A stretch of 56,063 bases of DNA from the NCBI GenBank assembly GCA_049325335.1, contig JBMOMC010000042.1:1-56063 (forward strand), read 5' to 3'. Positions 9,001 to 15,000 of the stretch are shown in pieces; within the stretch, counting starts at the first letter, position 1, and each line of letters starts with the position of its first letter. Source of the stretch: Nitrospirota bacterium. GTDB lineage: Bacteria; Nitrospirota; Nitrospiria; 2-01-FULL-66-17. Position numbers: made by a program.

Positions 9001-12000
9001 GCCCTTGTCAACCCGCGCGCCCGCCATTTTGAGTCCCGACACATTCACGATTCGAGGCAAGGTGCCGATGCGATCGAAAAACGCCCCCACCGCGTGATAG
9101 GCGCCCGCCACTTCCACATCCACGGGAATCTCGGTGTAGAGCCCTGATCCTCCAGGCCGTCGATCCGACGGTTTCCAGAGCCGAAAATCAAGGCCGGTTT
9201 TGATGCCGAGATCCGAGACCTGCTTGAGCAGCATGGCCACTTCGGATTCCGGGGGGAGTTGCTCTTTGAGCAACGTCAGTTGTTTCGCCAGTTCGGCGTT
9301 TTCACGCTTGAGGTCTTCCAGGCGTCGCGCCTTGGCTTGATTCACGTTGATGTCGTTGTTGACCTGAGCAATTTGTTGTTCGATCGCCGCGATCTCGGCA
9401 TTCTTCGGCATGTACACGAACCACACAAACGCGCCCAACAACAAGATCACCGGGATCGCGCCCACCACGGCTTTCTGGTACCCGGGCAAGGTCTTGAATG
9501 AATCGAGATTGAGTTCGAGGGCCATCAGCTTAGACCGTTAATGTGCATCTCAGCTTGAAATTGTACACGGCAACCCCGCTTTCCGTGACTTGACGAGACT
9601 CGATCAGCAGCGCCTCCTTGATATAGCGGGATGTTTTCAGGTTATTGATGAAATCGACGATCTCCGCATTGGTCACGGCCTTCCCCTCCAACTCGATTTT
9701 CCCGGACTGCTCGACCAACGATGTCAACCACACCCGGTCCGGCAAATTGCGGCTGAGTTCGTCCAATAACCGAACCGGCCCGACTTGGTTCCTGCGGAGC
9801 TGTTCGATAATGCCGATCTTTTCCTCGTAACTTTTTTTGTTCGACTCAAAATTCTCGACCTCTTTCACCTTCTCTTTCAAGGCCGCGAGTTCTTGCGTCC
9901 GCTGCGCTTGTTGTTGCTGGAGCGCGCTGATCCGGGCGGACATCGACCACCACACGTAGCCCATGCCCCCGATGAGCACCACGGCGAGGACCCCGAGTCC
10001 GGCCATCCGACTCGGACCGGCCAGCGAGATCCGCGATCGTGTCGGGCGTTCAACGCCCAGCAGATTAACTTTGATCATCGGTCGTCCGGACGGCGAATCG
10101 CGAGGCCCACCACCACCGTGGCCTGCGCACCGACCTCCGCAATCAGATCCGGGCTGACGGTCTTGGGGTTCACGCGGATTTGCCGGAACGGATCCAAGAG
10201 TTCAACCGGGACGCCCAACCGTTCCGACAAAAACGGCGCCAACCCAGACAGCTTCGCGGTTCCGCCGCTAAGCAGAACCCGATCAATCGTTTCGTGCGTC
10301 GAGGTCGACCGGAAATAGTCGAACGAACGACCGATCTCCGCCGCGAGTTCGCCGTTCATCGTACTGACGACTTCGGCCACGGCATCCGGGTTCACCCCTT
10401 CCACGGCCTCGCCCCGTTTTGCGCGTTCCGCTGCGTCAAAACTCAAGTTCAGGTCCCGCTGAATGGTTTCGGTATACCGGTTCCCCCCGGTCGAGATATC
10501 GCGGGTGAACCAGAAATTCCCGCCCTTCACGATGTGAATATTCATGACGCTGGCGCCGATATTGACCAACGCGACCACCTCCGACCCGGTGGAACCGTAC
10601 GCCGTTCCGTAGACGTTCTCCAACGTAAACGCGTCCACGTCCACCACCACCGGATTTAAGCCGGCCTCGGTGACCAACGAAGTGTACTCGGACAGCCGGT
10701 CCTTTTTGACCGCCGCGAGCACCACCGTCATCGTATCCTTGCCCTCCGGAGCATCTGAGGACGGCAGAATATGGAAGTCCAAATTCACGTCATTCACGTC
10801 GAACGGGATATACTGTTCGGCTTCCCACTTGATGGACTCCGAAAGCTCCTCCTCGGTCATGGGAGGCACGCTGATTTTTTTTACGATCACCGAATGGCCG
10901 GACACGGAGATCACCACGTCTTTGGCCTTGACCGCCTGCTCGCGGAGCAACTCCTTCAACACGTCCACGACGCGGCCCGCGTCCATGACCGCGCCGTCAA
11001 CGATTAATTCGGGGTCGATCGTTTTGATCCCGAACTTCTCCAGGACGTACCCCTTTTTAGTCGCCTTCAATTGAATGAGTTTGATCGTATTGGACCCGAT
11101 ATCAAGCCCGACCACTGGTTGCGCGCGCTGAAAGAGCATCACTCTTCGGCCCCTAACGTTCGCGACGGTTGCCCCGTCCGCGGATCAGACGCTCGATCTC
11201 GCGACGGTTCTTGTCGCTGTAGATGCGCCAATTGCGCCAATCACGACCGACCCCGCTGATCAACCCCTGACGTTCCCACCGAAACAACGTGGCCTTGGAG
11301 ATGTCGTACGCGTCGCAAATCTGTTTCGCCTTGTACGATCGTGTACGGGACTGAGCCATCGCCCTCGAATGTCGCCCCCAATCCGATTCGGTATCTTCTG
11401 AGAAACGGCTGTAAGTATACTTAGTATGGTCACGCTGTCAAGGGAAATTCTCGACACGGGGGTCGCGGCGGCCGACCGAGCGCTTCCGGAGCACCCGCCG
11501 TCGGAGCGGCGGTTACTGCGCGCCCCCATGCATTCTCGCGAACGCGGCCCAGTCAAAGGGCTTTGGCGCAATTTCGTGCAACGGAATGGCCTCGAACGCC
11601 CCGTCCGCACGCGAGGCGGCCAGACACCCGATCACCGTCGCGGGATCATCCACCGCGCGACGGACGACTTCGTACGACAAAAACTGCGCGAGCGCCTTGT
11701 CCTCCGGAACCGGCGGCGCGCCTCGCAGCGTGTGGCCGAGAATGGTCGCCTTGGTGGCCACGCTCAGCCGATATCGCGATGTCGCGTGCTGGTGCGGGCG
11801 GTCCGCGATGGCGCGCGCGACGTACCCTTCGAGTCCGTGCACGCCCCCGTCGGGATGGTGCCGGTGCGGGGTCCGTTCGGCCACCACGAACAAATGGCTC
11901 TTATTGGGCACCCCCAGACTCCGACGCAACGTCCCGAGAATCACGTCGTCGATATACGCGTCGGGGTCCGGGTGTTCGTTCACCAGGATCCCTTCGGCCC

Positions 12001-15000
12001 GGGCTTGATACGCGCAAGCCAGCGCCAGATGCCCTGACCCCGCGCCCATGATTTCCACGAAAAACACGCTGCCCATCGCCGCGCTGGTCGCCTTGAGCGA
12101 CTCCAGTGACTGATTGGCCAACGCCACCGCGGAGTGAAACCCCAACGAGGTGGCGCGCGCCAGGTTGTTGTCGATGGTGCCCGGCATGCCGACGACCTGC
12201 ACGCCGAACCCTTCGAACAGGGCCCGCGCCCCCCGTAAACTCCCGTCCCCGCCCATCACCACCAGCGCGCCGTCCGCAAGGTGCGGGGCCAAGTTCTCCA
12301 TGGCGATCCGCTGCACGCGTTCGTCCTTGAAGTCCTCGAACCGACTGCTGCCGATCGGACTGCTGGGATGATTGGCCATGCCGCGCGTGGCGGCCTCGGT
12401 GACGCGCTCGATCCAATTGTTGACCAGCCCCAGGAACCCGTGCCGGACAAACAACACCTCCACGCCGTATTGCTCCCCGCTGACCCGCAGCTCCTTGAGC
12501 GCCGCGCCGCCTCCCGCGAAATCACCGCCCGAGACCAAGGCCACGAGCCGCTTGAGTTGTCGCGGCGCCAGCGTCACCCGGTCACGCCGTTCCCGCTCCA
12601 CGGTCACCCACGCCTCACGGGTCGCGCGCTCGTGCGCGGACAACCCCACCGCGGTGGAATACCCCGACAACTCGCCCTGCTCGCACGTCAACAACACCAC
12701 GTTGTCCTGCCCTTCCTTATATTCCCCAAACTCCGCGAAGGCTTCCCGAAACGGACGCGGATCGAGATACACCATCAACGCGCGTAACGTCGAACTGTGG
12801 GTGTACACGCAGGCGACCCCGCCTTGGTGAGCCACGCCGAGTTCGTGCATGCCGTCCACCACGTCCACGTACAAGTCGAAAAACGAATGCCCCGCCGGAT
12901 AACAATACAGCGGGTGTTTGATGAGGCGTTTGGCCGTCTTGGCGTCCACGCCGAACGCACGGACGGCCTCGTCCAGCTCCGCCGATTTTTCAATGCCCGT
13001 GGCCCATCCGAAATCCTGGGACTCCAACGCCGCGTGGACGTCGGGGGCGCGCGGGGAGGCTACGCCGAGCGCCGCAGCCACGTGTTCGTGGAGCTGCGTC
13101 GTGTTGGGGCTGGAACTCACGTAGTGGGCGAACATCGTCGGATCCAGATAATTCGGCACGCTGAGAAAGTCGAGTTGTCGGCCGACCACGCCCAACCTCT
13201 GCGCCAACGCGCGACCCACTGCGTCGGCCGCGGCCGCGCCCCGAGCCGGCTCCAGCGTGTTGGCGAGCCGACGACCCACCCGCCGGGTTTTGCTCTCCAC
13301 CCGCGACACGCCGTGGCGCAACGCGAACAGCAAGGACCGGCCCGAGAGGTTGCGCGGCAGCAGCCAGAAGCGCTCGTCCCCCAGGTCGAGCACGATGCGA
13401 TCGCCGATCAACTGCGGCGTGAGCTGGGCCCGCGGCACGATCGCCACCGGACGCCGGCGAATCGGTTTGACCACGCGCCCGATCGGCGCGCGCAGGAGGG
13501 GCGTCAACGAGCCCTCGGCCGCGGCTCGGTTCCACGCGGCATACCACACCAACGCGTCGCCGCCGCAGGCGGTCTCGATGAGCGCCGCGCGCGCCGCGCG
13601 ATAGACCTCGGCGCCCACCGGCCCCCCGCACACGCGCTCTACAAACGCCCGCACCGCCGGCATCGCGGCGGCCACGCGGTCCGCGCGAGCCCCCGGGGGC
13701 GGCGGGGCCGGCCGCCGCACCCCGTCGACGCCGGGCTCGCAACGGGCCAGCGCCTCGCCGAGCGCCAACAACCCGTCGATCGTCACGAATCCCAGATCGT
13801 CCATTACCGACGTCCCGGAGTCGGCCGCGCGAACGCCCCGCCGCTCACGTCGATTCCACCAAGGCGACGATGGTGTGCAGCCCAGATGTCCCGTCGGGAT
13901 ACGCGCGCGCGCCGGTCTCCACCTGCCGTAGCCCGTCCTGTCCCTGGGCCCGCACCACGAGCGTGTGCGCCCCCGCGACCGGCGGCCGCCACTCGTACGT
14001 CCAGTGCACCCACGCGTAACGCGGCGACGGCGCCAACGCCGCGTCGCGCCACGTGCGGCCGCCGTCCGCGCTCACCTCGACGCGTTTGACGCCGTGCCCG
14101 CCGCCGAACGCGACCCCCCGCACCTCCTGACGCGCTCCGCGCAACACCTGGTAGTGCCCCGGGCGGTCGATCCGCGACGTCACCGGAATAACGCCCTCGT
14201 CGGTCCAGCCGCGTTCCTGCCAGTAGCCCCGGTGGTCGCGCTCCACGACCTCAATTTCGGTCAGCCACTTCACGTTTTTGATCCCAAAGATGCCGGGCAC
14301 GACGGCCCGCAGCGGGTACCCGTGGTCCTTGGGCAGCGTCACCCCGTTCATAGAGTGCGCCAGCAACACGTCGCCGTGCATGGCGCGCTCCAGCGTGATG
14401 CTGTCGTGGTACCCGTCGACGCTCCGGAACACCACGTCCACGGCCGTATCGAGCGGTTTGGCCTCGTCGAGCAGCCGCGCCAAGGGAAACCCGGTCCAGA
14501 GCGCGTTGCTCATCAGGCTGCCGCCGGGTTCGTTGTCGATGCATTGCAGCGTCACCATCAGGTCCTGCGTCCGCTGCTCCAAGATATCCACGTAGCGCAA
14601 GGTGCGCGGATGTTCGACCGCGCCGTGAAGACGCGCCGACCACTCGGCCGCCCGGACCGCCGCGCCGACTTCCAACGACTGATCGCTGTAGTTGACTCGG
14701 TAGAACTGATCGTTGGGCGTGATGAACGGCGTGTCGCGAGGCGGGACCGAAAACATCCGACCCCAGAAAAACATGCCCGCCTCGGCCGGGCGCGTGAGCC
14801 CCGCCCCGGCGAGCGCGGCGGTCGCCGTGAGGAGACGGCGACGGCTAACGACCTGCGTGGACCGGAGGACCATCCTTTGTCCCCTGCGCCTCACCCATCG
14901 TGGGCCGTCCGCCGGCCGCGGCCACGGGGGACCCCGCTACGAAATGCCGGCGACGCGTTGCGCCCACCGCACATAGCCGACGATTTTAGCCACGTCCTCG

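What a model noticed while it worked through the whole genome (the two positions that open the first line are those of the whole stretch)
11513..13804. A 763-aa phosphofructokinase paralogue fused to an N-terminal histidine-phosphatase domain
Beside a canonical 323-aa PfkA (g02086, C40) the genome has a second PFK-family gene, g02123 (763 aa). It carries a 415-aa N-terminal extension. Residues ~155-390 of this extension are a histidine-phosphatase (PGM/FBPase-2 superfamily) domain with both catalytic histidine motifs kept (RHG at 163-165, THSS at 335-338). A PfkA-type kinase follows (417-715). A kinase and a phosphatase of the sugar-phosphate world in one chain recalls eukaryotic PFK-2/FBPase-2, but here with a PFK-1 type kinase. 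It predicts a built-in switch between glycolytic and gluconeogenic flow in this rTCA autotroph.
Evidence so far: Pfam PFK 421-715; PFK rows occur only on g02086 and g02123. His_Phos_1 214-352 falls just under the cut-off, E 2.4e-4. PDB PfkA hits cover only 415-742. ESM Atlas: the N-terminal part is nearest to His_Phos_1 clusters (cosine 0.92; structure TM 0.43-0.49 to His_Phos_1 proteins), and two clusters of ~770-aa 'putative 6-phosphofructokinase' (57 and 133 members, mostly Nitrospirota) share the whole N-terminal part at TM 0.83-0.87. The motifs were read in the sequence. 431 proteins match residues 1-415 at E<=1e-60; the 120 listed are 64-83% identical over the extension, most are 765-805 aa, all carry PFK, and they are named only '6-phosphofructokinase' (Nitrospira, Nitrospiraceae and Manganitrop [...]
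(Added by a program. Inside this text positions count along the whole contig: contig position 1 is position 1 of the stretch shown here. "Call 12" and the like, gene names such as g00115 and contig names such as C1 are that model's own, and its searches are not shown. The text may have been shortened before it was handed on; [...] marks where a part breaks off. The agent that wrote the report below was given it as the finding of a first reader that could run no searches.)

Follow-up and report, generated by a model that had tools for sequence, protein, structure and literature searches.

The report
Phosphatase-fold-capped phosphofructokinase of nitrifiers
Nitrospira-type bacteria carry an uncharacterised protein that joins a remodelled phosphatase-like domain to an altered version of the glycolytic enzyme phosphofructokinase, most likely a new way of controlling sugar breakdown and not a simple two-way enzyme.

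Summary
The 763-aa ORF is real. Residues 156-388 adopt a histidine-phosphatase fold (Z 16.9 to PhoE), residues 417-760 are an ATP-type PfkA, and residues 1-155 are unassigned. Neither half is canonical. The phosphatase keeps R163, H164 and H336 in 202 of 202 homologues, but the proton-donor Glu is Ser (199 of 202) and the pocket Arg is Thr here (Arg in 110 of 191 near homologues). The kinase keeps D127 and the ATP motif but has R171A, D129N and R162S and a degenerate effector site. It does not replace FBPase: class I FBPase is present here and in 36 of 36 class-mates. The fusion occurs in 17 of 151 Nitrospirota genomes, with distant forms labelled Nitrospinae and Desulfatibia; it often lies beside pyruvate kinase, and its probable orthologue is in two published proteomes. 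Best reading (0.45): a PFK-1 whose allostery moved to a phosphatase-fold sensor. Boldest (0.12): a convergent bacterial PFK-2/FBPase-2. No paper on it was found in 9 searches. This scan reported the family three times before on other genomes.

The parts
11513..13804 (-). Whole fusion gene, 763 aa
   Evidence: one uninterrupted ORF in 73 of 80 related loci
13340..13804 (-). Residues 1-155: helical cap plus small beta part of no assigned family; C80, W91 and N92 conserved in all 11 distant homologues
   Evidence: Atlas structure match only to its own family (TM 0.71, others <=0.32); not folded or searched as a separate model
12641..13339 (-). Residues 156-388: histidine-phosphatase (branch 1) fold
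   Evidence: VIA Z 16.9 to PhoE and iPSP1, 16.3 to dPGM, 14.6 to FBPase-2; Foldseek E 3e-8
13310..13318 (-). RHG 163-165, nucleophile His164
   Evidence: R163 and H164 in 202 of 202
13097..13111 (-). SPNT-x 232-236; position 236 is the second pocket Arg (R58/R62 equivalent), Thr here
   Evidence: N234 and T235 in 202 of 202; Arg in 110 of 191 near and 11 of 11 distant; register set by hand against E. coli GpmA TSVLKR
13019..13021 (-). Ser262 at the proton-donor Glu position
   Evidence: hhalign register; Ser in 199 of 202
12791..12802 (-). THSS 335-338, second pocket His336
   Evidence: H336 in 202 of 202
12557..12640 (-). Residues 389-416: linker helix
   Evidence: helix 390-409 in both models
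11513..12556 (-). Residues 417-763: PfkA-type kinase
   Evidence: TM 0.81 by target to bacterial PfkA
12230..12253 (-). GGDGSLRG 518-525, ATP-type donor signature GGDGSxxG
   Evidence: motif from PMC11609450
12164..12184 (-). PGTIDNN 541-547: catalytic Asp127 kept (D545), Asp129 replaced by Asn
12041..12049 (-). MGA 586-588: Arg171 replaced by Ala
   Evidence: Ala in 98 of 99 fused, Arg in 53 of 53 plain PFKs
11855..11878 (-). ERTPHRHH 643-650: Glu222 followed by a conserved His-rich stretch next to the sugar site
   Evidence: E643, P646, H647, H649 in 116 of 116; longer than the E. coli/Geobacillus loop

Best explanation
An ATP-dependent 6-phosphofructokinase whose control has been rewired. 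Shown: the kinase half keeps the catalytic base, the ATP signature and the core sugar-binding residues, but has lost the Arg162/Glu161 switch and the Arg21/Arg25 effector site of bacterial PfkA; the front half is a capped histidine-phosphatase fold with an invariant but non-canonical pocket. Inferred: the front module binds a phosphorylated metabolite, or takes a long-lived phosphate on His164 from a donor with a good leaving group (1,3-bisphosphoglycerate or PEP are candidates), and so keeps the kinase off while the cell fixes CO2 and runs gluconeogenesis through its class I FBPase, and lets it on when glycogen or sugars are burnt. It is a regulated one-way valve, not a two-way enzyme.
For: Kinase: G11, R72, G104, D127, E222 and R252 in 99 of 99 fused sequences, T/S125 in 99 of 99; GGDGSxxG is the ATP signature (PMC11609450). 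Allosteric residues changed: R162 to Ser 90 of 99, R21 to Lys 99 of 99, R25 to Val 89 of 99; R162 is the R/T switch (PMC12203962). All 10 short-clade second PFKs read from Nitrospiraceae genomes (6 with, 4 without the fusion) have GGDD/PKTIDND, so there the fusion is the only ATP-type PfkA seen. Pyruvate kinase lies within 800 bp in 65 of 80 loci, in two arrangements (44 downstream, 21 divergent). Phosphatase half: no donor Glu (S262 in 199 of 202); pocket Arg replaced by T, E, S, K, G or W while neighbours are invariant. The probable orthologue is as abundant as FBPase in the N. marina proteome (46-55 spectra against 13-18), so an unregulated PFK would cycle futilely (inference).
Against: R171A and D129N change positions invariant in 53 of 53 plain PFKs and break the P(G/K)TIDXD motif; F6P 1-kinase activity may be weak or the substrate different. 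This genome and G093 keep a second ATP-type PfkA with intact R21, R25, R162, R171 and D129, and 15 of the 16 other fusion genomes have a second PFK match, so the fusion is not needed as the sole PFK. Pyruvate kinase is adjacent in only 7 of 17 genomes of an even sample, and not here. Invariant R163, H164, H336, K273 and E364, plus two apparently stand-alone forms (P0272, P0273), fit an active enzyme as well as a sensor; losing the donor acid need not kill activity (Vip1 E991A is more active, PMC11836120). In N. moscoviensis the protein is 10- to 20-fold scarcer than FBPase. The full-length model does not fix the domain arrangement (pTM 0.59).
Confidence: 0.45

Rival explanations
1. A signal maker and breaker: the kinase phosphorylates F6P (or another sugar phosphate) at a position other than O1, giving for instance fructose 2,6-bisphosphate, and the phosphatase removes it; the product tunes the separate FBPase, PFK and pyruvate kinase. 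A convergent PFK-2/FBPase-2.
For: The changes Asn129, Lys154 and small residue 171 are those of the regulatory C-terminal half of mammalian PFK (PATISNN, IKQS, MGG), which holds the fructose-bisphosphate effector site (PMC12203962), but the catalytic Asp is kept. The fusion coexists with a class I FBPase in 17 of 17 and with a second PFK match in 16 of 17 genomes. F2,6BP acts on PFK, FBPase and PPi-PFK in eukaryotes (PMC12965863). Low abundance in N. moscoviensis.
Against: FBPase-2 needs its Glu (recalled) and FBPase-2 is not the nearest structure (Z 14.6 against 16.9). Asp127 is Ser in the mammalian regulatory half. The distant fusions keep Asp129 (7 of 99) and one keeps Arg171. High abundance in N. 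marina. I found no paper showing F2,6BP in these bacteria (listing only).
Confidence: 0.2
2. The front half is an active phosphatase on a substrate outside the F6P/FBP pair (acyl-, enol- or pyrophosphate, or a glycolytic side-product), using E364 or E170 as acid; the PFK half couples it to F6P and ATP levels or works independently.
For: Pocket motifs (R163, H164, S230, S232, N234, T235, K273, H336, E364, Y382) in 202 of 202 including forms at 27-38% identity, which all have R236; two forms without a kinase; proton donors vary in this superfamily (PMC12051542); kinase halves differ between lineages at the active site.
Against: R236 is freely replaced in Nitrospiria, even by Glu. The stand-alone forms are single-member clusters on 1.6-2.8 kb contigs and no further copies were found. 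The kinase keeps every core catalytic residue.
Confidence: 0.15
3. One reading: PFK-1 and fructose-1,6-bisphosphatase (or sedoheptulose-bisphosphatase) in one chain, switched reciprocally.
For: Histidine-phosphatase FBPases exist and share the fold (YKR043C Z 14.4, Rv3214 Z 14.1; their activities recalled, apart from the title of 3lg2). Glycolytic gene context.
Against: Class I FBPase in 37 of 37 and transaldolase-family genes in 37 of 37 genomes, so no gap to fill; donor Glu and, here, pocket Arg missing; 9 of 23 Nitrospiraceae genomes show no fusion.
Confidence: 0.1
4. The front half is a catalytically and regulatorily silent scaffold (oligomerisation or stability), like the glyoxalase-like N-terminal domain of yeast PFK.
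For: Missing Glu and Arg; precedent of an enzyme-fold appendage on yeast PFK (PMC12203962).
Against: Conservation is concentrated on pocket residues and holds down to 27% identity; the domain averages 71% identity against 75% for the kinase.
Confidence: 0.1

Closest known systems
Bacterial ATP-dependent PfkA (E. coli 1PFK, Geobacillus 3PFK; PF00365, TIGR02482)
   Same: Fold (TM 0.81 by target), about 29% identity, D127, R72, E222, H249, R252, GGDGSxxG
   Different: 415 extra N-terminal residues; R171A, D129N, N17G, R162S, R243K; effector Arg21/Arg25 changed; 165.8 bits against the TIGR02482 cut-off of 371
Branch 1 histidine phosphatases (PhoE 1H2E, iPSP1 4IJ5, dPGM, CobC; PF00300)
   Same: Fold (Z 16-17), RHG and second His; K273 is in register with dPGM Lys100 and HSSTLRALMVYLD with GpmA HGNSLRALVKYLD
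   Different: Donor Glu is Ser, pocket Arg variable, Asn16 position is Glu/Asp, 155-residue cap; sequence profile does not choose between dPGM and PhoE types (15.8 and 15.2 bits; hhalign 18% and 86%)
Eukaryotic PFK-2/FBPase-2 (PFKFB)
   Same: Kinase and histidine-phosphatase fold in one chain
   Different: Order reversed; kinase is PfkA fold, not PF01591; no donor Glu; no activity shown
Regulatory C-terminal half of eukaryotic PFK-1
   Same: Asn129, Lys154, small residue at 171
   Different: The fusion keeps Asp127 and the GGD and GGDG motifs, which the regulatory half has lost, and loses Arg162
PPIP5K/Vip1 (kinase plus histidine phosphatase for a signal)
   Same: Two-activity layout; non-standard proton donor tolerated (PMC11836120)
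   Different: Branch 2 phosphatase (Z 11.6), other kinase fold, inositol substrate

Membership tests
PFK superfamily (PF00365) | Profile over cut-off and PfkA fold | tested here: met
   183 bits against 30.9; Foldseek E 1e-19
ATP-dependent PfkA | Catalytic Asp127 and GGDGSxxG / PGT donor signature | tested here: met
   D545, GGDGSLRG, PGT
ATP-dependent PfkA | P(G/K)TIDXD and MGR | tested here: not met
   PGTIDNN and MGA
ATP-dependent PfkA | Arg162 switch and ADP/PEP effector arginines 21 and 25 | tested here: not met
   S579, K437, V441; roles of R21/R25 recalled, R162
ATP-dependent PfkA | TIGR02482 equivalog cut-off | tested here: not met
   165.8 against 371.35 bits
ATP-dependent PfkA | F6P + ATP gives F1,6BP | not testable with these tools
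   needs an assay
Histidine phosphatase branch 1 | Fold | tested here: met
   Z 16.9, rmsd 2.5 A, 196 residues
Histidine phosphatase branch 1 | RHG and second His | tested here: met
   202 of 202
Histidine phosphatase branch 1 | Second pocket Arg (R58) | tested here: not met
   Thr236 here; Arg in 121 of 202; feature from PMC12051542
Histidine phosphatase branch 1 | Proton donor | tested here: inconclusive
Histidine phosphatase branch 1 | Pfam gathering score | tested here: inconclusive
   21.3 against 21.7 here; 24.7 for P0231; 11 of 120 listed carry it precomputed
PFK-2/FBPase-2 | P-loop 6PF2K kinase domain (PF01591) | tested here: not met
   no such hit on the protein or in the genome
PFK-2/FBPase-2 | Makes and hydrolyses F2,6BP | not testable with these tools
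   needs an assay
dPGM | Glu89, Arg62, RR motif; profile nearest to dPGM | tested here: not met
   Ser262, Thr236; no NCBIfam hit on residues 1-415; separate mutases in 37 of 37 genomes

The most novel reading that the evidence does not exclude
Nitrifying bacteria make a fructose-2,6-bisphosphate-like signal with an independently evolved kinase/phosphatase: a PfkA active site reshaped like the effector half of mammalian PFK but still catalytic, fused to a histidine phosphatase that needs no acid because its substrate phosphate is labile. The signal would coordinate their separate class I FBPase, second PFK and pyruvate kinase.
Probability: 0.12. Interest if true: 0.92.

Novelty: new variant of a known kind. 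Interest (0 to 1): 0.6.

Why it matters
How autotrophic nitrifiers hold an ATP-PFK next to an FBPase without futile cycling is unexplained, and this protein is a direct candidate. It is a PFK architecture not mentioned in the parts of a 2025 review of the superfamily that I read or searched, and both active sites differ from textbook ones in conserved ways, so one purified protein tests three questions: whether PfkA works without Arg171 and Asp129, whether a histidine phosphatase fold serves as a metabolite or phosphohistidine switch, and whether bacteria make fructose 2,6-bisphosphate.

Tried and rejected
Replacement FBPase: rejected, class I FBPase present; GlpX and class V not found in this genome. 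Replacement mutase: rejected, iPGM in this genus and dPGM in the other 34 genomes. Transaldolase bypass: no gap. Link to glycogen: phosphorylase-family hits in 23 of 23 Nitrospiraceae with or without the fusion, no discrimination. dPGM ancestry: local residues suggest it, profiles do not settle it. Split or stand-alone forms: the 108 shorter hits are 61-84% and lower partial matches that look like fragments, many labelled partial; one complete genome has an in-frame stop. More stand-alone relatives: profile search returned only 2 proteins; metagenome scan 12 loci, none stand-alone. Three of the 79 library hits (P0277, P0284, P0285) are repeat proteins and were dropped; G090's weak hit with stops was dropped from the count. 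Local neighbours (molybdo-enzyme, cytochrome c, pilM) are shared only within the genus and one near relative. First neighbourhood clustering was swamped by shadow ORFs. The careful kinase tree did not finish; the quick tree is used. RNA runs: none was listed. A domain-docking prediction could not be queued, so inter-domain contact is untested. The cap was not folded alone; no family is assigned.
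Full report
Observation. The ORF at 11513..13804 (-) is 763 aa with a coding GC pattern. 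Pfam gives PFK at 421-715 and His_Phos_1 just under its cut-off. 438 proteins match residues 1-415 among the 8000 candidates scored; the 120 listed are 64-100% identical there and all carry PFK. In 73 of 80 related loci the two halves are one open frame; of the other 7, four are cut by the locus or contig end, two have a frameshift and one an in-frame stop. The fusion is not an assembly artefact.

Anatomy. A model of residues 1-410 from a 51-row alignment is confident (pLDDT 92.9, pTM 0.91). Residues 156-388 match PhoE and iPSP1 at Z 16.9, human dPGM at 16.3, FBPase-2 at 14.6 and YKR043C at 14.4; the first unrelated fold scores 4.3. Residues 1-155 match only their own family and were not searched as a separate model. 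The full-length model (pLDDT 80.2, pTM 0.59) matches bacterial PfkA in its C-terminal half but does not fix how the halves sit.

Phosphatase pocket. The superfamily's pocket is R8, H9, R58 and H149, with a variable proton donor, usually a Glu (PMC12051542, passages). In 202 distinct homologues (191 near, 11 distant; the 11 are four lineages, 8 of them near-copies) R163, H164 and H336 are invariant, as are S230, S232, N234, T235, K273, E364 and Y382. The donor position is S262 (register), Ser in 199 of 202. The R58 position is 236: Arg in 11 of 11 distant and 110 of 191 near sequences, Thr in this protein, Glu in others. On a quick tree of 50 representatives it changes 10 times, at least 5 forced by well-supported branches. 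The pocket is therefore under strong selection but not for canonical chemistry in this class. Against a dead enzyme: E364 and E/D170 could serve as acid, and loss of the acid raises activity in Vip1 (PMC11836120, passages).

Kinase. Among 99 distinct fused and 53 plain PFK cores (the plain set is E. coli plus Nitrospirota, not a broad sample), the fused set keeps G11, R72, G104, D127, E222 and R252 in 99 of 99. It has R171A in 98, D129N in 92, N17G in 91 and R162S in 90, where the plain set has R 53, D 53, N 53 and R 52; R21 is Lys in 99 and R25 is Val in 89. GGDGSLRG fits the ATP signature (PMC11609450, section 6 and passages). R162 is the R/T switch (PMC12203962, parts 1-2 of 8 and passages). 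N129, K154 and a small residue at 171 are also found in the regulatory half of mammalian PFK, which has Ser for D127. In a quick tree of 55 rows the fused kinases fall on one side of a branch (SH-aLRT 97) next to E. coli PfkA; long branches meet there, so a single origin is likely but not shown.

Distribution. The N-terminal part is found in 17 of 151 Nitrospirota genomes after dropping one weak hit with stops (G090): this genome, 2 of 2 in its family, 14 of 23 in the family I take to be Nitrospiraceae from the named loci, and none elsewhere with this query. A scan of species genomes found 296 matching stretches. Distant full fusions are labelled Nitrospinae (P0231/P0289) and Ca. Desulfatibia (P0245); two 409-425 aa proteins have the module without a kinase, each a single record on a short contig. 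The Nitrospinae-labelled kinase has Leu at G108 and YGA for MGR; the Desulfatibia one keeps MGR and D129.

Metabolic setting. This genome has a class I FBPase, a second PfkA (with Asn103), an ATP-citrate-lyase domain, and no GlpX, class V FBPase or PF01591 hit. Class I FBPase is in 36 of 36 other genomes of the class; mutases and transaldolase-family genes are in 37 of 37. 15 of the 16 other fusion genomes have a second PFK match, one of them only a contig-end fragment. The 10 short-clade second PFKs read in Nitrospiraceae are PPi-type; the rest were not read. Pyruvate kinase lies within 800 bp in 65 of the 80 best loci, but in only 7 of the 17 evenly drawn genomes, and not in this genus. The link is real but lineage-bound.

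Expression. From supplementary tables (rows only): a 771-aa 'putative 6-phosphofructokinase' next to pykF has 46-55 spectra in N. marina against 13-18 for FBPase (PMC8115632); NITMOv2_1057 (776 aa, 'modular protein', divergent from pykA; PMC6606698) has 5-13 spectra and 10- to 20-fold lower iBAQ than FBPase in N. moscoviensis (PMC9381531). These were matched by name, length and neighbour, not by sequence. No RNA run was listed for this window.

Reading. Shown: architecture, folds, residue patterns, distribution, gene context. Inferred: kinase activity on F6P, sensing or phosphorylation by the front module, coupling between the halves. I put a PFK-1 with a phosphatase-fold regulator at 0.45, a signal maker/breaker at 0.2 (F2,6BP itself about 0.12), an active phosphatase on another substrate at 0.15, PFK-1 plus FBPase at 0.1 and a silent scaffold at 0.1. 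What this genome adds is that the fusion is kept beside an ATP-type PfkA with an intact effector site, which weakens the idea that it is simply the lineage's PFK.

Literature. Nine full-text searches were answered; the one combining phosphofructokinase, Nitrospira and histidine phosphatase returned 0 papers, and no listing described this fusion. The 2025 PFK review has no occurrence of 'phosphatase' or 'Nitrospir' and names only the eukaryotic tandem and yeast N-terminal fusions. Passages of PMC9239080, PMC8407350, PMC8115632 and PMC12965863 do not discuss it. Subscription papers and bioRxiv supplements were not searchable, so a description there cannot be excluded. The roles of R21/R25 and of the FBPase-2 Glu, and the activities of YKR043C and Rv3214, are recalled. 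This scan noted the family three times before in other genomes; one note gave the lead to the proteome tables, and another's 'almost always next to pyruvate kinase' holds for the best-scoring loci but not for the even sample.

Noticed in passing
G000:C40:46374-47204 (L001): The plain PfkA has GGNGS, Asn for the conserved Asp103; shared with G093, 2 of 53 plain PFKs.
   Followed up: partly
G000:C2:440036-441241 (L003, L004): The class I FBPase gene follows directly on a PhoE/iPSP1-like histidine phosphatase gene.
   Followed up: partly
L080:5980-8298; L033 and L077 near 6878: The fusion is interrupted by one in-frame stop in Nitrospira sp. NFB02 and by a frameshift near residue 287 in two MAG loci; pseudogene or sequence error not told apart.
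   Followed up: partly
L014:4740-5746, L080:8376-9379: A ribonuclease/barstar-family gene pair lies next to the fusion in several Nitrospira loci.
   Followed up: no
L137-L140, L142-L145, P0231: The Nitrospinae-labelled fused kinase has GGDGSxxL, with a bulky residue like the ADP-type signature GGDGSxxI, so its donor may not be ATP.
   Followed up: no
window 11414-11441 (-): Strong sigma-70-like site (TTGACA-16-TATACT, 11 of 12) between the fusion and pilM.
   Followed up: no
window 4422-6062 (-): Shikimate kinase and dehydroquinate synthase in one 546-aa ORF, behind the pilMNOPQ genes.
   Followed up: no
window 13845-16532 (-): SorA/MsrP-like molybdo-enzyme, cytochrome c and a 372-aa protein with only weak hydrolase hits precede the fusion, 40 bp apart; kept in the nearest relatives only.
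   Followed up: partly
G000:C1:44337 and C1:672199: This genus has metalloenzyme-family mutases and no GpmA match, whereas the other 34 genomes of the class have GpmA.
   Followed up: partly
G009, G059, G080, G114 and 10 genomes of family f3: No PFK-family match at all in 14 of 36 near-complete genomes of the class.
   Followed up: no
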